The notes below the pieces were generated by a model that saw nothing but the letters and a program-made list of their open reading frames with translations, was not told where the DNA came from and searched no databases. From NCBI GenBank assembly GCA_043228905.1, contig JBHGNT010000018.1:7502001-7566000 (forward strand): a DNA stretch of 64,000 bases, written 5' to 3'. Positions 1,911-61,388 of the stretch are shown in pieces. The translations under genes were made by a program, and so were the position numbers. Source of the DNA: Azolla caroliniana. Taxonomy: Eukaryota > Plantae > Polypodiophyta. The first letter of the stretch is position 1, and every line of letters starts with the position of its first letter.

Positions 1911-2914
1911 ATGAAAACTAAAAATGACCTCAAACACTCAAATAATATGAGAAGATAACCATGGAATATCCACCCATCATAGTTTATTGGTAACGCCCAA
2001 TTATTGAGGCTCGAGAAAAGGCGATGGACTAACATATAAGTGCTTAAATAGCACAATTTCATAAAAATGGACTAAGGGTACTTTATGAAATAACAAAATG
2101 TTAGGGGAATCATGAATATTTCGGAGTTTCATTCCCCCCTAACACGATACTCTTTAAACACAATATCATAAAAAGAGTCGGTTGGCGTTCTAAGATGACT
2201 TTGCTTTATTTGAAAAAAGAAACACACCATTAGCTCAACTTCCCATGATAATAATAAAATGAAACAAAATGTCCTTGGAGACAACTTTAAATGCACAATG
2301 AATATACTTAGCAATTTAGATATGGTTACATACATTAAAAGACGCAAGTATTCCACATGTCTAATAGATTGTTTTTGTGTGAATTTTTAATAGACATTAT
2401 TGGTATAGGTTGGCTTGTTGACCTTGGTAGGCCAAAAGAATGTAATGATTTCAAGTAGACTTCATGGTTACCTAAAGAAACAATCAAATTTAATAAAGTA
2501 GTTCACATAGGGATACACTTCTTACATTTCAAACTCATGTTGGGCATCAAAGAAATGTAAGGACTACACACAATATTATTTATGTTTACATAATTCTGAG
2601 CACCTATAAGAGTTTTGACAATGCATGTTGAAATCATATGATAGCTTAATTAGGCATCAAATACAAAGCATCGTGCATTGCAATGAGAAATATTTATTGT
2701 AAATTGAGTGTGGATTAAATTCCTTGCTACCTACGCTTGCATGTATATTAACTAATGTTTATGATATATCGTGGTGATAACAACACACTAAAAAAGTTCC
2801 TTTATTTAGGGGGGGGGGGGGATGAGATGGAATTGTGTACATGAAGTGAAGTGTACACAATTGATGAAGGGCAATAAGTAATGAAGTGGACCATAGGCTT
2901 GAGGAGTTGTCGTA

Positions 2915-4351
2915 ATGGCATGGAGAACTCATTCAAAGCTAACCCTTAATTCTTGTTTCTTCATTTTTATTATTTTCCTTGCTTCCAATGTGTTTTGTTT
3001 CTACTTGGGCTTCTCTTGGCAGTCTAGTGGTGGTCTCCATGCAATCACCTCATTGGGCTTCTCTTGGCAGTCTAGTGGTGGTCTCCATGCAATCACCTCA
3101 TTGGGCTCTAGCTCAACTTCTCCATCCATTTATGACCATTTTGATGTTACCAATTTGCTTTCCCACCTCAACCTCACAGAGATGGAGCTTCAACTAACAC
3201 GATTCGAGGTTTCCCAACTTCGACAAGATCTTAAAGCCGCACTGGAGCTCACTCGTGATTTGTTTGCAAATGGTAAATTGTTCCAAATGTTGAGTTCCCC
3301 ATCAACATCAAATGCAAGCCATAAGACACCAGAGGAGAACAATTCCACAAATGTAATCACCTTGCGCAACGCACAAATGATGAGTGAAGAATTGCACGAG
3401 TACATCGGGGAGAAGAAATTGCCATTAGGATGGAGCTTCAAATTGGCAAGTTCGACAATGGTGTCACCAGTAGGTCACTCATGTGAGCTTGTGATAAAAG
3501 ACCTACTCAAATACATGGATTATAAGGTTGGTGGCCCTTGCAATGATGACCAAAGACTTGCCCAATCCCTCATGCTTCATGGATGTGAGCCATTGCCAAG
3601 ACGACGATGTTTTGCAAAGGCTCCTAAAGCATTCAGGGAGCCATATCCAATGCCGGAGAGCATGTGGAAAATGCCCGATGACGAGAGCATATTGTGGACA
3701 CCTTATACATGCAAGAGCTTCAAGTGCTTGATCGAGCGGAAGAACAAAGGTGTGTTCGAGGATTGCATTGATTGTTTTGAGCTAGATGGGTTTGAAAATT
3801 CAAGGTGGATAACTCGAAGTACGGGGGATACTGACCTCGAGTACTCGATCGAAGAGGTGTTGGAGATAAAGAAGGGGACGATCCGGATTGGACTAGACCT
3901 AGGAGGAGGGACTGCAACCTTTGCGGTGCGAATGATGGAGCATAATGTCACCATTATCACAAGCTCCATCAATCTAAATGGACCTTTCAACAACTTCATC
4001 GCGCTTCGAGGGGTCGTGCCATTATACCTTAGCATTGCACAACGCCTACCGTTCTTTGACAACACTCTCGATATCATCCATTCGATGCATGTGCTTAGTC
4101 ATTGGATCCCAACCATCACACTTGAGTTCATTCTCTTTGACATTGATCGAGTGCTCCGTCCGGGTGGCATCTTCTGGCTCGATCGCTTCTTCTGCATCGA
4201 GCCTCAGCTCGAGGAAATCTATCTCCCCTTATTTAACAAGCTCGGCTACAAGAAACTCAAATGGGCTATCGGCCCAAAGCTTGACCGCGATGTGCGTCTC
4301 CACGAGGTCTATCTTTCTGCTGTTTTAGAGAAGCCATTGTCACGGAAATGA
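2915..4351 (+). CDS. Plant type II membrane-anchored SAM-dependent methyltransferase (At1g29790/At5g40830-like family), single exon, 478 aa
   Basis: N-terminal hydrophobic anchor (FFIFIIFLASNVFCFYLG), family motif GCEPLPRRRC, SAM-binding motif IRIGLDLGGGTATFA, QRLPFFDNTLDIIH and DIDRVLRPGGIFWLD; uninterrupted ORF. Confidence 0.9.
   Translation: MAWRTHSKLTLNSCFFIFIIFLASNVFCFYLGFSWQSSGGLHAITSLGFSWQSSGGLHAITSLGSSSTSPSIYDHFDVTNLLSHLNLTEMELQLTRFEVSQLRQDLKAALELTRDLFANGKLFQMLSSPSTSNASHKTPEENNSTNVITLRNAQMMSEELHEYIGEKKLPLGWSFKLASSTMVSPVGHSCELVIKDLLKYMDYKVGGPCNDDQRLAQSLMLHGCEPLPRRRCFAKAPKAFREPYPMPESMWKMPDDESILWTPYTCKSFKCLIERKNKGVFEDCIDCFELDGFENSRWITRSTGDTDLEYSIEEVLEIKKGTIRIGLDLGGGTATFAVRMMEHNVTIITSSINLNGPFNNFIALRGVVPLYLSIAQRLPFFDNTLDIIHSMHVLSHWIPTITLEFILFDIDRVLRPGGIFWLDRFFCIEPQLEEIYLPLFNKLGYKKLKWAIGPKLDRDVRLHEVYLSAVLEKPLSRK
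3005..3107 (+). repeat. In-frame 48-bp tandem duplication (LGFSWQSSGGLHAITS x2) in the methyltransferase stem region
   Basis: Identical units start at 3005 and 3053; partial third start at 3101. Confidence 0.95.
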
Positions 4352-6179: not shown

Positions 6180-7211
6180 GATAATGCATATGACAAAGTG
6201 AATTGGGTGTTTATGAGAATTGTAATGAGGGTAATGGCTTCAAAGAGAGAATGTCTAGTCTAGTTGATAAATTGGGGAATGCGTTAATATCACACATATA
6301 TTCTTAATATTTGCATCACCCAACCCATCCCATGTCATCAATAATCTAGAGGATGCCCGTTGAGTCCAATACTTTTTCCAATTGTAACTCATTCCATTCT
6401 AACAACGTTAAATAATATGGCAAGGGTCGGGGAAGGAGTTAATATCACACATATTTCTTAATATTTGCGTCACCCAACCTGTCCCATATAATCACTAATC
6501 TAGAGGATGCTCGTTGAGTCCAATACTTTTTGCAATTGTGACTCATTCCATTCTAACAACGTTAAATAATATGGCAAGGACTGGGGAAGGACTTAATATC
6601 ACACATATTTCTTAATATTTGTGTCGCCCAACCCATCCCATGTCATCAATAATCTAGATAGAGGATGCTCGTTGAGTCCAATATTGTTTGCAATTGTGAC
6701 TCATTCCATTCTAACAGTGTTAAATTATATGATGAAATTAAAGGTGAGATAGATGTTGTGGTGTTACAATGCCTCGAATTTATCTCCTATTGGAAGACGG
6801 GCCCTTTTCTCACACTACAAAATGCAAGACCCATGTGGTGCTTGTTCCCACCACAATTACATAATTAGGTTATTGAGTGGTGGAGTGTTGATACTATCCT
6901 TTAGGGATGGGGTCCCATGGAAGAGTGCAACATACCAAACGAAGCTTAACGGTAGGTCAACATTCATGTAACTATTGTTTATAACTAATGAATGGATATT
7001 TTCATGGAAATAATAATAATAATAATATGGCAAGGGAATGGGTGTAAGTTGGACTTTAATTTACCTTGGTAGAGCCTTATGTAGCTTAAGCGTTAGCGGA
7101 TGACCATATAATGTTTTTGGATGATAAACACATAACATTGATAAGCCCCGGAAGTGTAAAAAAAATTTGCTATTGCTTGAGGATTGAGAATTAATGGGAA
7201 TTTTTTTGGTG
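6180..7211 (+). pseudogene. Decayed LINE reverse transcriptase, 5' part (continues after the Gypsy insertion at ~14563-14670)
   Basis: Ordered LINE RT motifs: DNAYDKVNWVF (6180), RGCPLSPILF (~6348, triplicated), LADDHIMF (~7093), GLRIN (~7181); HLAYPISV at ~14636 beyond the insertion. Confidence 0.7.
6284..6730 (+). repeat. ~154-bp tandem repeat x3 built from the LINE RT GCPLSP segment
   Basis: Units start at 6284, 6439 and 6593. Confidence 0.9.
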
Positions 7212-7523
7212 TGTTACCCAGACCCGGACAGTCAGTTTTACCGAACAAGTGGGAAAGCGTCGAAAACGGAGTCAGTTCGGATCGACTGTTCGGATCAATG
7301 ACTCAGCAGTGAACAAAGAGAACTAAGTTAGTTAGATAATTTTGTAATTCTTGATAGTAAGTAGGAATAGTTCTTGATGAGAAAAGACCTTCGGTATACC
7401 TATAAAAGGGAACCGAAGGCATTGTAAGAAAGGTCGTTTATTTAGTAATATAAGTTTAAGTTAGGAATATCATGTACGGATTCTGTGTTCTTTCTATTGT
7501 CTATGTTGTTAAGTGCAAGCTTC

Positions 7524-8384
7524 CTAATTTATAACTAAGTAACGATCACGGTAATTATCGGCATGTGCTGATTCTTCCTCTATCCATTCTTCATGTACTA
7601 CCTGTCGGTGTCTTCGCGGTGCTTGTACTATCGGTGGTCTTCTTGACTGAACAGGAGTTTCCGATTCTTGAATCGGAAACAATACCGATAGCCAACGACC
7701 AAAAATTTGCTTCATTGGTTTTCCTGTTTTTACCCCTTGTAGCTGCTCTCTCAGAGCTTCCCCCGACAATAGTGGCCAGTTGAAATCCTCCTTTTCGTAT
7801 GCGGCTATGATAAACCCAGCCCTTTTTTTCGGCATACAATAAAAACGGGGACTGACAAATCCCACCTCTAGTAAAAATCTAGCCACTTCATGGAAAAACT
7901 CATCCCGACCTCCATAAGTCTGATATGCTTTTGCCGAGGGTGAGTATTCCCCGAAATACGATTGGAGTGCTTCTGATGAAGGTTTTTTAACTGCCTCAAA
8001 GCCTCCTCTTGGCATCTGTAATGCATTTCGTATTTTCTTTGTGGTGACCTTGGTGATGTCTAATTGTTGTACCAATTCTTCCGCCTGCGGATGAGGTTCC
8101 GCTTCTGCTACTTTGATGAAACCTTGTAAGTTTCTCTCATAAAGCCACAGTCGCAGTTCTTCAGACACAGGAATCGGCATGACTTCTGTGTTTGCTTGTT
8201 CTGAATCACTTGACGATGACGGTTGGAGATCTGCACAGCTTCTGTAGCGATGAAAATCAGAAAAATAGAGTTTGGGCGAGCTAGGGCACGAAGGCTCAGA
8301 ATGTTTCGAGATCTGCACTCGTTTCTGTTGCTTTGGCGACACAGAAGATACAGAAATATGCTTTAAAGATATTAACTTATGCAT
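7524..8384 (-). CDS. Extra sense ORF downstream of pol (eORF-like, unknown function), truncated by the inverted LTR
   Basis: 286-aa ORF after pol and a poly-A tract; the last ~10 codons (NYRDRYLVIN) read through the inverted LTR. The start codon is uncertain. Confidence 0.6.
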   Translation of the reverse strand: MHKLISLKHISVSSVSPKQQKRVQISKHSEPSCPSSPKLYFSDFHRYRSCADLQPSSSSDSEQANTEVMPIPVSEELRLWLYERNLQGFIKVAEAEPHPQAEELVQQLDITKVTTKKIRNALQMPRGGFEAVKKPSSEALQSYFGEYSPSAKAYQTYGGRDEFFHEVARFLLEVGFVSPRFYCMPKKRAGFIIAAYEKEDFNWPLLSGEALREQLQGVKTGKPMKQIFGRWLSVLFPIQESETPVQSRRPPIVQAPRRHRQVVHEEWIEEESAHADNYRDRYLVIN

Positions 8385-8553
8385 TATGACTAAAGAATAG
8401 TAATTGCTATTAATGTAGGAATTAATTAGTATTAATCATGCAATTCCTCTTTCTATTTATAGTCGATTCAGACTGTTATGGCAAGATTCTATTTCTTCAT
8501 TTGACAAGAACTATTGAGTGAGTTAGTTAGTTTTTTTTTTTTTTTTTTTTTTT

Positions 8554-11500
8554 TTACTCTTCCGTTTGAATAAACGGGTTTACCGGCATATCTCCCAAAT
8601 ACGGTTTAAGCCGGAATCCATTTACCCATTTCGGTAAAACCTCTCCGGTTAATGATCCCAGTTGATACGTACCATTTTTACTATTAATTATCCATACTGG
8701 ACCTGTCCATCTATACCGGAGTTTCCCAGGCATAAGTCCCATTTTCGTCTGGAAAACCAATACCGGTTTCCCAATTTCGAATTGCTCTTCCGATTTCCTT
8801 CGATGTCGATTTACGAATGCCTTGATTTGTCTCTGCTTGTGTTCTAGTGCTGACATTGATTGAATCCGTTCTTCTTCTAATACTAATAAAGCCTCTTTGC
8901 GTATCTGCTCCGATTCTATTTCATTTAACTTATTCGTCGCTTGGATACGAAGTGTCGGAATTTGGAATTCGATCGGCATAACGGCTTCAAGTCCGAATGC
9001 CATTCGGAAAGGTGTTGATTTAATGGATGTTTTGTACGAAGTACGATATGCCCATAATGCACTATTTAACTTTTGATCCCAATCAGTACGATTTTCATTC
9101 ACTATCTTCTTTAAAATTGTTTGAATTGTTTTATTTGTCGATTCTGCCAATCCATTAGCTTGGGGATAGTAAGGCGTACTTTTCTTATGAACTACGGCAT
9201 AATAATTAGTTAATTCGTGAATTAACTTGTTAATAAAATGAGTGCCTTGATCGCTTACCAATTCTATTGGGCAACCGAATCGACACCATATATTTTCATA
9301 CAGGAATTTTGCTGTGGATGCTGCTGTATTGTCTCTGAGAGCTTTTGCTTCAACCCATTTTGTGCAATAGTCAGTCGCAATTATGATATATCGATTACCG
9401 GTTCTTGCAGCTGCTGGTTTGAATGGGCCAACAAAATCTAAGCCCCATTTCTGAAATGGCTCAAGAGGTAAAACCGGTTGAAAAGGCATTCGATCCTTTT
9501 CGGTCGGTTGCCCCATTCTTTGACACAAATCGCATTTCTTACAGTATTCGATAGCATCTTTCATCACCGTTGGCCACCATAACCCGCTATTCCATATTTT
9601 TCTGGCTGTTGCTTCTCCTGCGTAATGACCGCCAGCAATTCCACAATGTGACTCTGTTAATATGGCTAATTTTTCAAATTTCCGTACTGCCCTTCGCCAT
9701 ATTCCATCCGCTCCTTTATGATACAACATGTCATTAAATAAACAAAAATTTCGACTTCGTACTGCAATTCTTTTTCTTTCATCTGTCGACATGTGTTCGG
9801 CCGGAATTCCTGTTGATAGAAATATCGTCATTTCGGAAATCCATTCATCCTCTTTTTCCTCATTCATTTCTTGTGCTTTTACTGCCTCAACCCGAAATAA
9901 TTGAGTATCTGGAAAATCATCTTTAACACCAACCGCTTCTTCTCCAGATTCAAGCCGACTGAGATAGTCAGCAATCGCGTGCTGTGCTCCTGGTCGATGT
10001 ATAATGTCGAATTCAAACTCTTGAAGCAATAACGTCCATCTGGCTAACTTGCCTGTCAATTCTTGTTTGGAAACTAGATACAGTAGAGCCGAATGATCCA
10101 CATGAAATGTAAATTTCTTACCCAAAAGGTAATGTCGAAATTTGTTCACACTATATATCATTCCCAAAGCTTCTCTTTCGGTTGTTGAATAGTTTCTTTC
10201 GGCCGACGAAAGTTTCCTACTGGCATAGTATACCGGCCTATACCAGTTTGGTTCGGATAATTGCATTAAAGCACTGCCTATGGCAATGTCCGACGCATCG
10301 ACGAAAACATGAAATGGTTTGTTCCAGTCCGGTGGTTGAACTACCGGAACCTTTGTCAGCATCTTCTTGAGACATTCGTATGCATCTTGTTCTATACTTG
10401 TCCATATAAAAGGAACTTTGTGTACTGCTGTGTGTAACGGAATAGCAATGTCTGCTAGATATCTCATCATTCAACTGTGCCACCGAATTTGACCCAAAAA
10501 TCTACTTAGAGCTTTAGCATTTGTTGGTGGTGTCGCCTCAATAATTGCTTTAACTTTGTCTGGGTCCACTGCAATCCCTTCTTGACTGACAATATGCCCA
10601 AGTAACGTACCACTCATTACTCCGAATGCGCATTTGGCTGGATTTAAGCTAAGACGCCCTTTTCGACATTTTTCTAAACATAGCCGTAAATGCTCAAAAT
10701 GATCAGCTTTCCGACTATATACCGCAAAATCATCTAAAAACACCTGCATGAAAGCTGGAATATATTCCCCGAATATTTCCTGTATTACCCGTTGAAATGT
10801 AGCTAGAGCTGTTTTTAAACCGAACATCATTACTACTGCCACAAAGACACCCCATTCTGTGACAAAAGCTGTCTTTTCCTGATCTTCCGGATTCATCCGT
10901 ACTTGGTTGTACCCACTGAACCCATCCAAGAAACTATAAATTTCATGTCCAGGTACTGCATCTAATATCCCATCTGTGAATGGCAACGGAAACGCATCCG
11001 TAATTGTCGCTGCATTCAATTTTCTGTAATCCACACATACGCGAATTTTCCCATTCTTTTTCGGGACTACTACTATCGGACTCAACCATGTTGATTTTTT
11101 GACGGGTCGAATAAATCCTACTTTTAAGAGTTTATCGATTTCTTCTTTTACTTTGATAGCATAATTCGGATTCAACTTGTACCTGCGTTGTTGTACTGGC
11201 TTTGCATCTTTATGCAAATTGATTTGATGTTGACAAAAAGCGGGATCCAGACCTTTCATATCGTCAAATGACCATGCAAAAACATCTTTATATTGTAATA
11301 GTAATGTTGTTAATGTCCGTTTGTCATTTTCCGCCAAATCTCTAGCAATCAAGACTGTTTTTCTTTCACCATCCTCTACTCCTGCCAAATCGATCTCCTC
11401 CAATGCTGAGGCTTGCACTCTCTGCGATACCTTCATTTCCTTATCTGTAGCTTCTTGTTGCATTCGTATTTCTTTCATTGTTTGCTCATCTATTAGCACT

Positions 11501-14047
11501 TCTTCGTGTGAGTCTACATATGGTGTTAATGCTTGCAAAATATCTACCTCAAATAGAGGGATGATTTTCTGATTATCATTGAAATACTGACTTTCTTCTT
11601 CCTCGTCCAATCCTTCCATCATATTAACTGCTTCTGCATGTACAGGTAAACTCTGTTTGCTTGTTGTCACTTTGTTGTGCGTCGGAATCCTAACCTTAGT
11701 CTTTCCTTTCCTAAATGTTAGCACATTTTGTTTCCAATTTTGTTTGATATTAGCTGTCTTTAACCATGGTCTCCCCAATAACAAGGGGTATGCTCCCTGC
11801 GTTTCTAACTGCAAAATTACTACCGAAATCTGAAAACTGTGTCCCCCGATTATTACATCCAGTTGTCAAAGCAAACCAATCGGTCGTACCGTACTTGTAT
11901 CTGCCATTCGTAACCAAAATGGACATGCTTCCCATTCCATGATTCCTAGTTTTTCACATGTAGCTTTGTTAATCACATTAACTCCCGAGCCTCCATCTAT
12001 AATCACATTTCCGATTTCTTGCCCGTAAAGTATTACCTTAATCGACGGATTCTGTTCATCCATGATCGAAGGGTTATTACTTGGCTGATTGTAGTGTACT
12101 GCTATTTGTTCGGAACCTTTATATGCAATTAATGCTGCCACTTTTTCTGTAAACCTTGGTACTAACTTAAGTAAGCCCGTAAGTGGCAATGACACTTGGC
12201 AATCAGCCAACAGTTTCCAAGTTTCTTCCTGTTCCTTATTCCCCAATGACTGTTGTACAGCGATGTTCTGGTCAATATTATTGTCTTGTAACATTCGATT
12301 CACATTACTTTGATTTGCTTCGTCAACCCATTCTTTTGCCGCCTTCCGAACTTCTTCCTGAATTTCCCACTCTGATTGTTTGCTTTTGCTGCGTGTCGTT
12401 ACTTGCTGAACTTCCGGTATTACCATATTAACTGCTGGACCCTTTCCTTTAACCGGACATTGATTAGCATAATGGCCTAGTTGTCGACAAATATAACAAG
12501 TGGGTACAAATGTTCCACCGGTCTCTCCATGTGCAAATTGGCCGTTACTAAATTGCTGCTCTTCATTACCACTCGGGTTTTGTTGGTATTGACGTGTAGC
12601 TTTTGGTTTGTAAAATCTCTTATTTTTATACCGATTCTGCCTAAATTGTTCGGTATTATCATTTGGCTGTGCTACATTTTGTGTTATCCCGAACTCCTGA
12701 TTTGGCAGAAAATTATTCTGTTGAAACATTTGATTATTTTGTGGAACGGTTTGAGTATTATGTTGAAAGGTCATATTACCCGGTTGAAATGCCGGATTTG
12801 GTTGAAATGCAGAATTCGGTTGCACATTCGGACAGTTCTGTTGAAACCCTTGAAATGGTGGGTTACCTTGTTGGAAACTTTGATTATTTTGTTGAAAATA
12901 TTGATTCGGATTCTGTACGAATGGTGGGTTGGATTGAGCAAATCCTGGTTGAAATGCTTGAGTCACTTGAGTGGGTTGCATATTTTGTTGTGAAAAGATC
13001 TTATTTGGCTGTAGAACCGGATTTTGTTGTACATTTTGCTAATTTTGTGAAAAATTATTATTTTGATAACCATTGAACAGATTAGTGTTATTTTGGTAAC
13101 CATTGTCAGTAAAAATTTGTCGTACTGACGCCGTAGTTTTATTAAGCAGATTATATTCACATTGTTCTACTGAATGTAATTTTGAATGACATATTGTACA
13201 ATGTGTTCTTAACGTACATTCAATTGCCGAATGCCCCGTATTTAAACAAGTGGTGCATTGAACTGCTTGTCGAAATTGTAACTCCTCTATTGTTGGTAAT
13301 GTACGGTGTAATGCCGACATGTCCATACTCTGAACATTGACCGGTGGTCGACCCATTTCTATTGCTTTATCAATTACTTGTTCGATAGTCTGATTTCGAA
13401 AATCGAACACTTTCAATGTCGTCCTTAATGGTTCTTTTACAGCTTCTAGAAAGACTTCTTTTAATTCATTATCCGGAATCGGCCTTGAAATCTGAAGCTG
13501 TAAGTTCTGAAATCGTATCACAAATTGAGATACTGTTTCATTTTTTTCTTGATATAACGCATAAAATTGCGCAATCAAATCCTTCTGCGGAATTTGTTGA
13601 TGAAATAATTGTAAAAATTTACTAGTTAACACTTCAAAGGATGGAAATCCTTGAAGACCGTTCTACGCAAACCAATTGGCGGAATATCCGTCTAATGATA
13701 AGACGAACTCAGCGATTTTTGACTTATCTTCGGCATCTGCCGACAATCGCTGAGCTCCATGGTTAATCTCCCATGTCGTTAAGAAATCCCTAACATGTGC
13801 TTCCGCATCTGTTCCTTCCCGGAACTTAGAATAAGTATAAGGCATATCGTCCCAAATGTCGTAAAAACGATACCTCTTCCGTCTGTTTTTCGTCTGAAGG
13901 TAATTGATCGGATAAGTCAGGAAGTTTCGACCACTTTGTGCTTGATTCCGGCTGTTCTTGCGCAATGAACGCTTCCTGCACTGCCTTCGTAACTGACCTT
14001 GTACGAGGGCGCTTACAACTGACCGGTGTCTCCTCTTCATATGACAT
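8554..14047 (-). pseudogene. gag-pol polyprotein of the inverted-LTR element, with 4 in-frame stops and 1 frameshift
   Basis: Zn knuckles CTTCLNTGHSAIEC and CYICRQLGHYANQC; protease IIDGGSGVN; RT VCVDYRKLN...VFLDDF; RNase H FVDASD...ERNYSTTERE; integrase HHCC, WGLDF, VSDQG, NGLAE, GPY/F-like WTGP. Stops at 13663, 13039, 11866 and 10471 lie in one frame; frameshift near 13865. Confidence 0.92.
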
Positions 14048-15747
14048 CCATTCGATTTGTTCTCTGCTTAATTGCAGATGTAACCGGGCGTGCCAAATTT
14101 CTTCTGTGTTAATCGGCTAATTACTAACTACTACCGATACAGAAGAGTGAACGTCGCTACTCAACGTTCTAACAAGGAATTGTGTTTTACGAACGGAATT
14201 ATACTATATTAATCGGTAATTACCGTGATCGTTACTTAGTTATAAATTAGGAAGCTTGCACTTAACAACATAGACAATAGAAAGAACACAGAATCCGTAC
14301 ATGATATTCCTAACTTAAACTTATATTACTAAATAAACGACCTTTCTTACAATGCCTTCGGTTCCCTTTTATAGGTATACCGAAGGTCTTTTCTCATCAA
14401 GAACTATTCCTACTTACTATCAAGAATTACAAAATTATCTAACTAACTTAGTTCTCTTTGTTCACTGCTGAGTCATTGATCCGAACAGTCGATCCGAACC
14501 GACTCCGTTTTCGACGCTTTCCCACTTGTTCAGTAAAACTGACTGTCCGGGTCCGGGTAACATGGTGCAAATCTAATGTATGGAGAGGAACCTTCAAAAT
14601 CTAGGTTGGGCAACTAGGCCTACTCCATTTGTCAACACTTGGCATACCCCATTAGTGTCAAGGAAATGAGCACCCAACCATTTTTTGTTAAGAGTAAGGA
14701 ATTCCTAACTTAGGCAATTAGTGCAAGAGAGCATTGAAGGACCAAGAGGCAAATGTTACCTCAACCTCGAGAGGAGATGATACATTGATATTGCGACTTA
14801 GTTCACACACATTATGATATGAGACAGTTCTCTGTGCACAAGTGATGAGAGTTTACTATGCAAACATTGCCCAAAACAAGTTCAAGAGTTTGAGTATCAC
14901 ACATTGATACAATGCTCTTCCTTTCATCACATTCGATTATGCTTTCCACACATTGTAAACCAAACTTAAACCCCACACAAATTTCTCAAGCACAATCATA
15001 ATGTGCATTCTTGACTGCAACATGCATTGGTAAAATTCTTGAACATCAAGTCGCTACTCACTTTTACGTGAAATGTAATATTTTTGCTTGTCTAGTGGTG
15101 GTGTTCGAATTTTATCGCCCATCATCCATGTCTCTTTTGTGCCCTTCCGATTTTGGCCTTTTTCTTTTTCCAAAATGGCGTTGGTATGCAGGCCACTTGT
15201 CAAAGACTAATTGATTATGGAACTCTACTTCTTGAGTATGAAAAAAACAACACGTTTTCAAGCCCATATCTCATGAGGTGTATGAAATGCATGTGTGGAT
15301 ATGAAGCTCTCATTAGGCCCAAAAATCCTTGTCAAGCCCATCCTTCCTAAAATCCACACCTAAAATTTGAAAACAGACTTAACACAATGATGGTTTTCTA
15401 TTCTAGAGAGAGTAAACTAAGAAACTTCAAAACCAACGGTTGGCCAAGTTGCCCAATTGAAAAATCTCTCAAATGTGCTCTAAACTAATATTCATGGCAA
15501 GCAATAAGTTGGTGTTTTGCATGAGAATGTTGCTAATGGGTGTCCGCATCCAATTTGTGATGGGGAGAGAATGTTTTGTTGGGATATAGAATTATGGGAA
15601 AAGAGATCTCAAATGTGAGTGGTGGGAAGTAAGTGATCTTCTATTATTTAGTAACCACCAACTTGCTACCTACCATGTTGTTTCACAAGTTGAGTCACTT
15701 CGTATGCCCTTGTTGTGCTTGGGGGTTTCTCAAGGTCATATGCAAAA

Positions 15748-21330: not shown

Positions 21331-21482
21331 GGACTTCATTAAGGATAGATAGTTGAAAGTGGAAAAAGAATTATATAGAGACTTAACACCACAAATTTAT
21401 GTGAAGTCTACACATAAGCAAAGGGTAAACTAGAGATCTGCATAATAATAGTAAACTATACGTTTGCATATAAAACAAAATG

Positions 21483-21554
21483 TATCAGAGCGAGGTTTCG
21501 ATCCTCGGACCTGTGGGTTATGGGCCCACCACGCTTCCGCTGCGCCACTCTGAT
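21483..21554 (-). tRNA. tRNA-iMet: Cytosolic initiator tRNA-Met (CAT)
   Basis: ATCAGAGTGGCGCAGCGGAAGCGTGGTGGGCCCATAACCCACAGGTCCGAGGATCGAAACCTCGCTCTGATA: plant iMet sequence with A1-U72 pair and GATCGAAA T-loop; upstream CAA motif and downstream T-runs. Confidence 0.97.
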
Positions 21555-57055: not shown

Positions 57056-60000
57056 TGTTACAACATTGCTATTGGCCGGTTCGGACGGCCAGGTGTGAAA
57101 AGGCCGAAAAGCGGTTACGAGTCAAACTAAAAGCGGGTAGGGCCAAATGAAGCAGTAAAGAAGCGGGAAGGAAAAATAGTAAATATTTAATAGTAGTAAC
57201 GGTTCACGCTCCGTTCTTAACCGTCCATGATGCCTATAAAAAGGGTCATGGGAAGCTTGTAAAAGGAGTCAAATAGTATTGTATCAACTCTGTCTTTCAT
57301 AATAGATACACACTGTAGTGTGTCGTAATTGATCTATGTCGAGTCCTCACGTTCCTATGGAAACGTGTTCATAACCAGTCGGTTGTACCGGCTCGTGTTC
57401 ATCTTCATAGTCGCACAATCACACTCTGTTCAATTCCTACATGGGTTATTACTATCATTTCGAAAGCGAGATGATCCCACTTAGACTTTCCGACCACAAG
57501 ACCTTGAGTCGGATACTAAAGGATGAGTGTTCGACACCATGTTACCTTGAGTTGGTAACATTTTTGGCACGCCGGGTAGGATTGTGGGTCCACAGAAGAA
57601 CATCGGGGAATGGATGTCATCTAGCCGATGAAGCAGCAAAGAGACGACGTGACGAGGAAAACCTCACACTTGAGCGGAATCCCGATGCACGGTAGATGTC
57701 ACATTGGAACAATTGCAACTAGACATTCCACTACTGGACCACGATGAAAGTGTGGATGAATCCACACTGATTGAGCAAAGCCACCTAGGGCCGGAAGTCC
57801 TCTCCAAAGCGCAAGACGAAACCGGAGCAACCCGCGACAGTAGCTCAGAGGTCGACCACAAAGGCTTCCACACACCATTCACTTCGGATCACGCTCACCA
57901 TTGAGTCAGATACTAAAGGACGAGTATCTGACACCGTGTTACCTTGAGTTGGTAACATTTTTAGCACACCGGGTAGGATTGTGGGTCCATTGAAGAACAT
58001 CGGGGAATGGATGTCATCTAGTCGATGAAGCAGCAAAGAGACAACGTGACGAGGAAAACCTCACACTTGGGCGGAATCCCGATGCGCGGTAGATGTCACA
58101 TTGGAACAATTGCAACTAGACATTCCACTATTGGACCACGACGAAAGTGTGGATGAATCCACACTCATTGAGCAAAGCCACCTAGGGCCGGAAGTCCTCT
58201 CCAAAGCGCAAGACGAAACCGGAGCAACCTGCGACAGTAGCTCAGAGGTCGACCACAAAGGCTTCCACACACCATTCACTTCGGATCACGCTCACCATTG
58301 AGTCGGATACTAAAGGACGAGTATCTGACACCGTGTTACCTTGAGTTGGTAACATTTTTGGCACACCGGGTAGGATTGTGGGTCCATTGAAGAACATCGG
58401 GGAATGGATGTCATCTAGCCGATGAAGCAGCAAAGAGACGACGTGACAAGGAAAACCTCACACTCAGGCGGAATCTCGACGCGCGGTAGATGTCGCATTG
58501 GAACAATCACTACTGGACGTTCCATTATTGGACCACGACGAAAGTATGGTCTAATCCACGCTCATTGAGCAAAGCCACCCAGGGCCGGAAGTCGTCTCCA
58601 AAGCGCAAGACGAAACCGGAGCAACCTGTGACAGTAGCTCAAAGGTCGACCACAAAGGCTACATCACACCATTCACTTCGGATCACGCTCACGATAGTAT
58701 CAACATATACGACCCCAACACTATGACATTCCGATGACGTAGCCGATGTAGAGGTGCATGTGAGGGCATTTCTCACCACGTGGCAACCCAACCATGTGTC
58801 TCAACGACTAGCGGAGGCTGACGCCAATGCGTCGAAAATAGCAGAGTTCGGGTTATCCCTAGATGAACTGGTATTTGCAACATGACTTGGCATCATTTCC
58901 GACTTTCGAACACTTGTGGACATGGTTCACCTGATTGTTCCGTCGTCAAATCCCACAACGCGAACTAATAAGTCCATTTACTCTATTGGCCAATACGACC
59001 ATGAACCCGTCTCACAGTTTGTGATTCGCTTCCAGAATCTCCGCCATCAGTTAACACGGCAGCCCAGGGAAGACGAGGCTAAGGAAACCTTCTTGGCGGC
59101 CCTGCGCGAGCCCATGTGAACGATCGTCGCCATGCTCAACTTCACGGAGCAGACAACCGACAATGTGATTGACTGTGTACTTTGATTAGATAGTGAACAA
59201 ACGGATGGAAGCATGTCTATGACTACCTTACAACGAGCCCTAGGCTTGCTACCGAGGGACAACGAACTGTGATTTCGTCAGGCTGTCCAATGCACCATTT
59301 GTCTCAACCCAGGGCACTCGATTATCAAATGTAACATGCGAGTGCATTGCCCAATCTGCCACTCTCGGGTACATACCGTAGAACAATGCGAATATAACCT
59401 CCTCAATCAACCCATGGCAACAATTCGACGTATTGAACCACAAAACACCGGAAGACAGTCGGATAATCGAGTCCGACAAGTCGATCAACATAGGGATGAG
59501 GCGCTTCCTCGCTATAATGAATGACCTCGACAGGAAATTGAATGGTATTGGGACGACGATGATCGCCGGGACGACGAGTACCGACGAGGGGATTGCAACG
59601 ACAATAGGTATGCACCCCATTATGACAATCGGTTACCTATGAACAACAGGAGTAGTCAAACCAAACCATGAAGCTATTGGGGCGACCGGCAACCCCGGAA
59701 CCCTCGCTCAAGAGATGACAACCTTGATGACGATCAACGAAGGCCACCAACTAACAACCGTCATGATAATCGTTGAAAACCCCGCTATACGCGCCAATAT
59801 CAATGTCAACCGCGACCCCGAGATGAGCCCAAATGGCAATTGGAGCCAATCGCTCTGCCAGCGGTCGAAAGAGGGGAATTGAGCATATAGTGTTTTAACT
59901 GCCAACAATTGGGGCATTATGCAACCCAGTGTTCACGACGGGAAAAAGGCAAGGGGCCAGCGGTAAATACAATCACCGCTGAGGTACAACAAGTTACCAC

Positions 60001-61368
60001 GCGCAACCATGCAAAAACATTGGAATGGGAGGTCTAGGATGAAATCCAGAAGTCGACGAAAGCATGGGTCGAACAAGTAAACGATGTGAATGTCGATAGA
60101 ATGCGTCAAGAGAGCATAACCGTCGCGGCCCCTCTGCCAGCCTCGGTTGATGATGCCACAACAGAGGAGGACCCCCTTGCAGATTGTCAAATTACGATGT
60201 TGACAAACAAATTGCTAAACCTTGTTCTGTGGTTTTGTCAAATGTTGGAAACGAGAATGCGTGAGGACCCACCAACCATTGCGGCACATTTCACAGAGTC
60301 CGTGAAGGGTCGACGGTCGTAGATCACCATAACCCTACCATAAAAATTATAATCAAGGGGGAATAAATTTCCGGTTGCATAATTGACGACGGGTCGGGGG
60401 TAAATGTCATCAACAAAGAGACCTGCCACTGCCTGGGGATTGCACTTGGGAAGCTTGCCCAGTTTTGCTCCACATGGCGGAAACCCGATCAGTCCGACCT
60501 TTGGGATTGCTGCGGAAATTGGGAATCATAGTAGGCGGACATTCCTTCGAAATATTGGTGGTGGTCCTACCACTGGATGCACCAGGAGCGTACCCCATTC
60601 TATTAGGAAGACCATGGCTGTGCTCGGCGAATATCAAACAATATTGGCAATATAATAATATTAGCTTTCGTCGCGGCCAAACCAAAATTTAGGTGAGAAC
60701 CCAAGAAAGTGCGCCAACAATGAAAGAGCTGACCCTATTGTATGTAGAGGAAATCCACATGCTAGAAGGACTGGTAGATGAAGAAGTGGAGTAGTACCTT
60801 GAAGAAAACTGGCTCGTACCTCTCTTCGAAATTGATGTTATTGAGGGAATCGGCGCGTACGTCAAACCCACAATGGTCGAGGACGACGGTTGCGAGCTAG
60901 ACATGGAGGTGGTTATGGACTTCGGCATTAGAAGAAATGAATTTCGGGACCGCTGAGGAACCACGACCAGTGTCCATTGCCAAGGATTTGCCAACCCCAG
61001 AGAAAACGGCCATGATCGAGCTATTATGGGAACACATGGATGTATTTACCTGGTCTACGAAGATATGAAGGGGTGTGACCCAAAATTTACCAGCACCAGA
61101 TACATCTATCAATAGATGCCAAGCCTGTACAACAATGTTGATACCGAATGAATCCAAATTACGCGGTTTGCATAAAGGAAAAAATCGATAAACTATTAAA
61201 AATCAAATTTGTTCGTCCTGTCACAGTCTGATAATCATAGTTCCAAAGAAGAACGGAAAAATTCGGGTGTGCATCGATTACTGAAAATTAAATGTCGTAA
61301 TGGTAACCGACACATTTCCTCTACCATGCACGGATGTGGTGTTGGACGTTGTATCCGGCCACGAGATG
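57056..61368 (+). mobile_element. Decayed Ty3/Gypsy element G, a relative of the 7212-14562 element, interrupted in RT
   Basis: LTR from ~57056/57067 to 57560 ending TAACA, TATAAAAGGG; PBS TGGCACGCCGGGTAGGA; gag/PR/RT remnants collinear with 8554-14047 (e.g. SVRPLGLLRKLGIIVGGHSF, YPILLGRPWL). Confidence 0.85.
57504..58692 (+). repeat. 397-bp tandem repeat x3 spanning LTR end, PBS and leader/gag start
   Basis: Units start at 57504, 57901 and 58298. Confidence 0.95.
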
Positions 61369-61388
61369 TAATCATAAAGATATTCGAC

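What the first reader, a model, noticed from the sequence alone, without database searches (positions are those of the whole stretch)
7207..14567. Gypsy retrotransposon with inverted LTR ends inside one clean 5-bp TSD
Seen: 7212-7557 is the reverse complement of 14217-14562 (three transitions noted by eye), so both ends are the same U3 end (TGTTACCC) facing inward. There is no direct-repeat 3' LTR and no PPT, yet TGGTG is duplicated exactly on both flanks and the host LINE continues across the insertion. Known: LTR elements normally have direct LTRs and integrate one U3 and one U5 end; DIRS-type inverted repeats go with tyrosine recombinase, whereas this element has a DDE integrase. Inference: integrase processed a U3/U3 cDNA in a single event. 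This is either a rare aberrant reverse transcript that still integrated or an undescribed subfamily with TIR-like LTRs.
Basis: partly seen in the sequence, partly recalled or inferred. Interest (0 to 1): 0.85.

Follow-up and report, generated by a model that had tools for sequence, protein, structure and literature searches.

The report
Retrotransposon inserted by two left ends
A young but broken copy of a plant jumping gene carries its left end on both sides, facing inward under one clean insertion scar; it is likely a one-off copying slip that the element's own integrase still inserted, and it has the layout that would be a first step from a retrotransposon towards a DNA transposon.

Summary
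Real. A Ty3/gypsy copy (7212-14562, minus strand) has a full 456-bp 5' LTR and, in place of its 3' end, an inverted copy of LTR bases 1-346; TGGTG flanks both ends. Contigs of public runs confirm the left junction (one run, possibly the source sample) and a contiguous empty site (two other samples). The parent family is normal in LTR layout: direct 3' LTR, intact polyproteins 98-99% alike, and an 883-898-aa extra ORF that this copy cuts at codon 277, at a 4-nt microhomology. So it is not a subfamily with TIR-like LTRs but most likely a one-off: reverse transcriptase switched from the extra ORF onto a second plus strand, and integrase inserted two U3 ends. 'No PPT' is a family trait: an inverted PBS-like site stands 2 nt before the 3' LTR, while the 5' PBS lies 11 nt from U5. 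The copy is predicted unable to replicate. I found no paper on such two-U3 integrants, but this scan noted like cases on other DNA (at least 7 genomes, unchecked notes), and the PPT-less lineage in this genome. Genome-wide copy number could not be counted.

The parts
7207..7211 (+). Left target-site duplication TGGTG
   Evidence: single copy in empty alleles
7212..7557 (+). Inverted copy of LTR bases 1-346 (U3 and part of the likely R) replacing the 3' LTR; starts TG at the host junction
   Evidence: left junction in run X1
7401..7407 (+). TATA-like box of the inverted arm (LTR position 190), pointing into the element, antisense to gag-pol
   Evidence: function inferred
7554..7557 (.). Inner junction: 4-nt microhomology shared by the LTR plus strand and the antisense of the extra ORF
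   Evidence: family contigs leave the LTR after 7557 and the extra ORF before 7554
7524..8384 (-). Truncated 3' extra ORF: 277 family codons plus 9 codons read from the inverted arm; family protein 883-898 aa, no Pfam family
8453..8462 (-). TATA-like word upstream of the extra ORF; an A25 run (8531-8555) follows the integrase stop
   Evidence: function not tested
8554..14047 (-). gag-PR-RT-RH-INT polyprotein gene, broken by a frame change near 13865 and four in-frame stops (13663-65, 13039-41, 11866-68, 10471-73); no chromodomain or extra RNase H hit
14085..14095 (-). Primer-binding site beginning TGG (tRNA-Arg type by recall and earlier notes; not matched to a tRNA gene here)
14096..14106 (-). 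11-nt spacer between the LTR's terminal CA and the PBS, also present in family contigs
14107..14562 (-). Full 5' LTR, 456 bp, TGTTA...TAACA; 12-bp palindrome at 14214-14225 (LTR 338-349) where the inverted arm ends
14563..14567 (+). Right target-site duplication TGGTG
6345..7206 (+). Host flank: decayed LINE-like RT remnant (left part)
   Evidence: weak RVT_1 hit; motif order recalled
14568..14902 (+). Host flank, right; contiguous with the left flank in empty alleles

Best explanation
This is a single broken Ty3/gypsy copy with a U3 end at both termini and one 5-bp target duplication, likely made when reverse transcriptase slipped from the extra ORF onto a second plus-strand copy of the LTR and likely inserted by the family's own integrase. 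Shown: layout, TSD, empty allele, normal parent family, truncation point, 4-nt microhomology. Inferred steps: (1) the plus strand, after normal transfer at the PBS, ran through gag-pol into the extra ORF; (2) at codon 277 its 3' end paired with a spare plus-strand strong-stop DNA at LTR 340-346 (4 perfect, 6 of 7 bases) and copied it back to base 1, or, equivalently, a strong-stop DNA stalled at base 346 primed on the sense strand; (3) the linear DNA then had two correctly made U3 ends, which integrase processed and joined in one concerted step; (4) the copy decayed by CpG transitions. It is predicted to be a dead end: its RNA would have no direct R repeat and no second-strand priming site, and would fold back on itself. 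About 0.9 for 'one-off, both ends integrase-made'; about 0.65 for the reverse-transcription slip as the way the inner joint arose.
For: Both host junctions fall exactly at TG/CA of U3 with a 5-bp TSD; one-ended integrations in HIV/ASLV instead give rearranged host junctions (PMC5041404, passages). Retroviral integrases join two identical ends concertedly with a correct TSD in vitro (U5 oligos; PMC3790719, passages). Ty3 makes several displaced plus-strand strong-stop DNAs per particle and dead-end ones accumulate (PMC5371799, passages). The arm (346 nt) is shorter than a strong-stop DNA (456 + spacer + PBS). The inner joint is not at an LTR terminus, so integrase (autointegration) did not make it. 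A 4-nt or longer microhomology arises at 1.9% of random joints, and this site is the best of 444 LTR positions by matches in the last 7 nt. Both arms share the minority state at LTR 100 and 104 (other letter in 5166 of 5166 depth in X5, 159 of 159 in X3 at LTR 104), and that state also occurs in X2, whose contig shows the empty site, so the arms come from one parental subfamily. Arm divergence predicts 2.7 stop codons (range 0.6-7.9) against 4 seen: arms and body look equally old. Empty site in X2 and X5.
Against: One junction cannot separate a polymerase slip from end-joining of two cDNAs. By duplex energy over 12 nt another LTR site (window starting near LTR 412) ranks above the junction. 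A 12-bp palindrome occurs in 144 of 1000 shuffled LTRs, so the palindrome alone is weak evidence. No listed contig bridges the inner or the right junction, and X1 may be the sample the window came from. The age test has wide limits. No genome was available to count copies; contigs drop rare variants.
Confidence: 0.65

Rival explanations
1. Integrase paired the U3 ends of two separate cDNAs of one parent, inserted them concertedly, and host microhomology-mediated end joining fused the two free ends after resection.
For: Gives the same outer junctions and TSD; 4-nt microhomology suits end joining (recalled); integrases use two separate identical donors in vitro.
Against: One partner would have to be trimmed to 346 bp, inside the length of a strong-stop DNA, while the other kept 7 kb; arms share subfamily variants, which needs both cDNAs from one subfamily.
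Confidence: 0.17
2. A normal copy was rearranged after insertion: repair synthesis replaced the 3' end with an inverted copy of the 5' LTR (or a nested opposite copy lost two pieces), rejoining through the 5-bp TGTTA/TAACA terminal repeat.
For: The LTR termini share 5 inverted bases, so microhomology exists at both breakpoints; TSD would be kept; arms share variants.
Against: Needs a breakpoint within the last 5 bp of the 3' LTR; arms are not younger than the body (low power); the variants shared by the arms also occur in a sample with the empty site, so none is shown to be a post-insertion change copied across.
Confidence: 0.09
3. A replicating subfamily with inverted LTRs, moving by some DIRS-like or cut-and-paste route.
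For: Whole gag-pol lies between two integrase-type ends; copy number was not counted; contig assembly can drop a low-copy joint.
Against: Family contigs cross LTR 346 and the extra-ORF joint unbranched at depth 2841 (X5) and 159 and 78 (X3) and show a direct 3' LTR; 7 of 7 long homologues lack the cut; the window's truncated protein is not in the collection; no internal complementary region (longest match 11 nt); coding region broken.
Confidence: 0.05
4. Assembly artefact in a high-copy repeat.
For: About 150 LTR equivalents by contig depth in X5 (2841/18.8, rough); right and inner junctions not seen among listed contigs.
Against: Left junction exact in X1; the inner joint is a 4-nt overlap between different parts of the element, not a repeat; the right end gives a perfect TSD that the empty alleles confirm; arms differ at three CpG sites and share minority variants.
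Confidence: 0.03

Closest known systems
Plant non-chromovirus Ty3/gypsy elements with a 3' forward extra ORF (OTA-like; Neumann et al. 2019, PMC6317226, passages)
   Same: gag-PR-RT-RH-INT order, no chromodomain hit, non-Met PBS, 5-bp TSD, extra ORF after pol
   Different: This copy has inverted, unequal LTRs; the family has no PPT, no extra RNase H hit, and a PBS 11 nt from the LTR (that survey scored 0-5 nt). Tree did not place it in a named clade.
Template-switch complex LTR insertions of Triticeae, rice and maize (Sabot and Schulman 2007, PMC1950507, first half of text read)
   Same: Aberrant reverse transcript inferred from one TSD and near-identical outer LTRs, inserted by integrase
   Different: Those have three direct LTRs and normal U3/U5 ends; here the polarity flips and both ends are U3.
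Ginger1 DNA transposons (Bao et al. 2010, PMC2836005, passages)
   Same: Gypsy-type integrase between terminal inverted repeats starting TGTNR; the paper suggests Ginger1 TIRs came from two oppositely oriented LTRs
   Different: Ginger1 has 40-270-bp TIRs, 4-bp CCGG/CCGT TSD and multiplies as DNA; this copy keeps gag and RT, has a 5-bp TSD, shows no second copy, and likely gained both ends in one event, not by two insertions.
DIRS-1 (PMC7192593, passages)
   Same: Retroelement bounded by inverted, unequal terminal repeats
   Different: DIRS uses a tyrosine recombinase and an internal complementary region; neither is here.
HIV-1 proviruses with asymmetric LTRs and inversions (PMC9278108, passages)
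   Same: Reverse-transcription misalignment products that still integrate
   Different: In the passages read the LTRs stay direct; no two-U3 provirus was described there.

Membership tests
Ty3/gypsy LTR retrotransposon | gag, PR, RT, RH, INT in that order | tested here: met
   Pfam; protease by a DGGSG motif only
Ty3/gypsy LTR retrotransposon | DDE integrase with zinc finger | tested here: met
   rve and Integrase_H2C2
Ty3/gypsy LTR retrotransposon | TG...CA ends and 4-6 bp TSD | tested here: met
Ty3/gypsy LTR retrotransposon | Two direct LTRs | tested here: not met
   Not in this copy; present in the parent family (X3 1036-nt contig)
Ty3/gypsy LTR retrotransposon | PBS after the 5' LTR | tested here: met
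   TGG-starting site 11 nt after the LTR; tRNA identity not tested
Ty3/gypsy LTR retrotransposon | PPT before the 3' LTR | tested here: not met
   Lost region in this copy; in family contigs of 3 of 4 runs an inverted PBS-like site stands there
Named non-chromovirus clade (Athila, Tat, Phygy, Selgy) | RT phylogeny with reference members | tested here: inconclusive
   26-row tree, backbone open, no REXdb references available
DIRS | Tyrosine recombinase | tested here: not met
   No such Pfam hit in 6 element ORFs; rve instead
DIRS | Internal complementary region | tested here: not met
   Longest internal match to either end 11 nt
Ginger1 | TIR 40-270 bp beginning TGTNR | tested here: not met
   Begins TGTTA but is 346 bp
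Ginger1 | 4-bp CCGG/CCGT TSD | tested here: not met
   5-bp TGGTG
Ginger1 | Several copies sharing the same ends | tested here: inconclusive
   No branch in family contigs, but no genome to count in
Template-switch complex insertion (Sabot and Schulman) | One TSD and near-identical outer LTRs | tested here: met
Template-switch complex insertion (Sabot and Schulman) | Third, internal, direct LTR and two cores | tested here: not met

The most novel reading that the evidence does not exclude
In this PPT-less lineage plus strands are primed repeatedly at an inverted tRNA site 2 nt from U3, while U5 carries an 11-nt extension, so two-U3 cDNAs form and integrate at a raised rate; such copies, with a whole integrase gene between two long inverted ends, are the one-step raw material from which Ginger-like DNA transposons arise, and some have already moved again as a unit.
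Probability: 0.12. Interest if true: 0.8.

Novelty: new variant of a known kind. Interest (0 to 1): 0.47.

Why it matters
It shows in a genome, with an empty allele as control, that an LTR-retrotransposon integrase likely accepts two identical U3 ends, and that a reverse transcript can likely change polarity and still integrate. That gives a one-step route to the 'integrase between inverted LTRs' intermediate proposed for the origin of Ginger1 transposons. LTR finders that need direct repeats would miss such copies, so their rate is unmeasured; a census of arm lengths would read out plus-strand intermediates in vivo, of special use in a lineage that lacks a PPT. The inward-facing promoter and fold-back RNA would also make it a candidate source of silencing RNA against its family. 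As a single, probably dead copy, its own weight is modest.

Tried and rejected
No whole genome is held, so direct versus inverted copies were not counted. Earlier-findings look-ups by sequence and by relatives found nothing. Only 4 of 20 listed runs were laid, all as contigs; no raw or long reads were offered. A product joined at the inverted PBS (a built-in route to inverted LTRs that I looked for) did not appear among the 24 of 205 loose ends shown: no verdict. Palindrome as cause: weak. DIRS-like ICR: none. Autointegration: rejected, the inner joint is not at an LTR end. One-ended integration with host repair: rejected, both host junctions are exact. Two independent adjacent insertions: rejected by the empty allele. 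Clade placement by tree: unresolved, with a long-branch outgroup (24 of 120 hits used). The solved-structure look-up for integrase was not completed. The only tRNA gene in the window is tRNA-Met, so the PBS could not be matched to its tRNA. Paper searches for such elements gave none: 0 papers; listings read; hits were DIRS, HIV integrase or host rearrangement papers. The library lacks most subscription papers, and supplements of PMC6317226 (PBS types per clade) were not read.
Full report
Observation. The element lies on the minus strand from 14562 to 7212 (7351 bp). Its ends form an inverted repeat; over 346 bp the arms differ at three sites, LTR positions 9, 31 and 63, all transitions in CpG. 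TGGTG stands directly outside both ends (chance about 0.001). No direct second LTR occurs in the window. Pfam finds gag, a zinc knuckle, RT, RNase H and an rve integrase with its zinc finger, in gypsy order, and no tyrosine recombinase, chromodomain or extra RNase H. The polyprotein gene has four in-frame stops and a frame change near 13865; five intact family polyproteins of 1830-1836 aa match it at 97.9-98.8%.

Independent data. Of 20 runs holding the stretch I laid four, all as contigs. X1 has a 373-nt contig across the left junction with no difference, depth 9; it may be the source sample. X2 (687 nt) and X5 (2163 nt) each hold one contig that runs from the left flank (to 7207) straight into the right flank (from 14563): the empty site, with a single TGGTG. 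Both show one more T in the T-run than the window predicts, which I read as homopolymer slippage. So the insertion is polymorphic and the flanks are contiguous. No listed contig covers the right or inner junction, but the tables were cut (32 of 1217 and 32 of 1549 pieces). The LINE nature of the target is only weakly shown (RVT_1, E 0.0016, 1 of 12 frames).

The parent family has direct LTRs. High-depth contigs continue from LTR position 346 into U5 (X5 depth 2841; X3 depth 159) and from the extra ORF past the junction (X3 depth 78), without a break at the junction. The X3 contig of 1036 nt carries 578 nt of 3' internal sequence and then a whole direct LTR ending at position 456. Rough depth ratios in X5 give about 150 LTR and about 55 internal equivalents (the tool warns that depth is no copy number). 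Family extra-ORF proteins are 883-898 aa in 5 of 7 long hits; their match to the window stops at 7554, codon 277. So this copy has lost about 600 codons, the 3' UTR and the 3' LTR. The family sequences overlap the window at 7554-7557: a 4-nt microhomology, 6 of 7 with one mismatch, within a 12-bp LTR palindrome. Such overlap arises at 1.9% of random joints, but by duplex energy the site is not the best in the LTR and palindromes of that length occur in 14% of shuffles.

Two family traits bear on mechanism. First, there is no PPT: contigs of X1, X2 and X3 show a PBS-like site, inverted, 2 nt outside the start of the 3' LTR. Earlier unchecked notes describe this for several families of the same genome and propose tRNA priming of the second strand; I confirmed the site, not the priming. 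Second, the true PBS lies 11 nt from the LTR's CA, also in family contigs, whereas Neumann et al. scored 0-5 nt (PMC6317226, passages). The cDNA would thus have a 2-nt extension at U3 and an 11-nt one at U5 (inferred).

Mechanism. Both host junctions are exact integrase-type ends; one-ended integrations of HIV and ASLV give rearranged host DNA instead (PMC5041404, passages), and retroviral integrases join two identical ends with a correct TSD in vitro (PMC3790719, passages). The inner joint is not at a terminus, so it predates or is independent of integrase. One strand of the insert begins as LTR plus strand and continues as minus strand, which is what results if the growing plus strand pairs with and copies a spare strong-stop DNA, or if a stalled strong-stop DNA primes on the sense strand. 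Ty3 particles hold several displaced and dead-end plus strong-stop DNAs (PMC5371799, passages). The arms share minority variants at LTR 100 and 104 that also exist in X2, whose contig shows the empty site, so both came from one parental subfamily. Arm divergence (0.9%; 95% range 0.2-2.5%) predicts 2.7 stops against 4 seen: no sign that the arm was copied later, though the test is weak. I give 0.65 to the slip, 0.17 to two cDNAs joined by host repair, 0.09 to later rearrangement through the 5-bp terminal repeat, 0.05 to a replicating subfamily, 0.03 to artefact. The copy is predicted not to replicate: its transcript would lack a direct R repeat and the second-strand site, and would fold back; the inverted arm also points a TATA-like box (7401) into the element.

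Comparison. It is a derivative of a non-chromovirus gypsy family; the tree did not fix a named clade, and the nearest named RT relatives, about 50-54% identical, come from liverworts and a fern. It is not DIRS (no recombinase, no ICR; PMC7192593, passages) and not Ginger1 (TIR length, TSD, retained gag and RT), but it matches the intermediate that Bao et al. suggested for Ginger1, an integrase gene between oppositely oriented LTRs (PMC2836005, passages), here reached in one event. The closest described process is template switching that yields complex insertions under one TSD (PMC1950507, first half read), where LTRs stay direct.

Novelty. My paper searches (listings only) found no description of two-U3 integrants; the library is incomplete. 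This scan's own unchecked notes report like insertions in at least 7 genomes and two more like-ended insertions in this genome, so the class seems recurrent and this is one more, unusually complete, case. What it adds is an empty-allele control, an exactly mapped joint, a whole gag-pol between the arms, and the PPT-less parent with asymmetric end spacers. Verdict: real; new variant of a known kind; interest 0.47.

Noticed in passing
family contigs at window 14562: The parent family has an inverted PBS-like site 2 nt before the 3' LTR instead of a PPT; seen in 3 of 4 runs.
   Followed up: partly
14096-14106: 11-nt spacer between LTR end and PBS, family-wide; how integrase trims such a U5 end is unexplained.
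   Followed up: partly
7524-8555: The 3' extra ORF (883-898 aa in the family, no Pfam family in its first 277 aa) has its own TATA-like word and follows an A25 run placed right at the integrase stop.
   Followed up: partly
57056-61374 +: A second, older element of the same lineage (about 40-60% protein identity), LTR 57056-57560 with PBS 4 nt after it, and three tandem 397-bp copies of the LTR-end/PBS/leader region; cut in RT by a Copia-like element.
   Followed up: no
14598-15288 (run X1): X1 holds a second haplotype 7-9% diverged at single-copy depth, suggesting a homeologue or paralogue of the flank.
   Followed up: no
2903-4351 +: Intronless-looking host gene for a SAM-dependent methyltransferase (Methyltransf_29/11) with a short internal duplication near its start.
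   Followed up: no
6274-6731: About three tandem copies of a LINE RT fragment (roughly 155-bp period).
   Followed up: partly
21482-21554 -: tRNA-Met gene.
   Followed up: no
31700-56700: Nest of Copia and chromovirus-like Gypsy remnants with several direct-repeat pairs.
   Followed up: no
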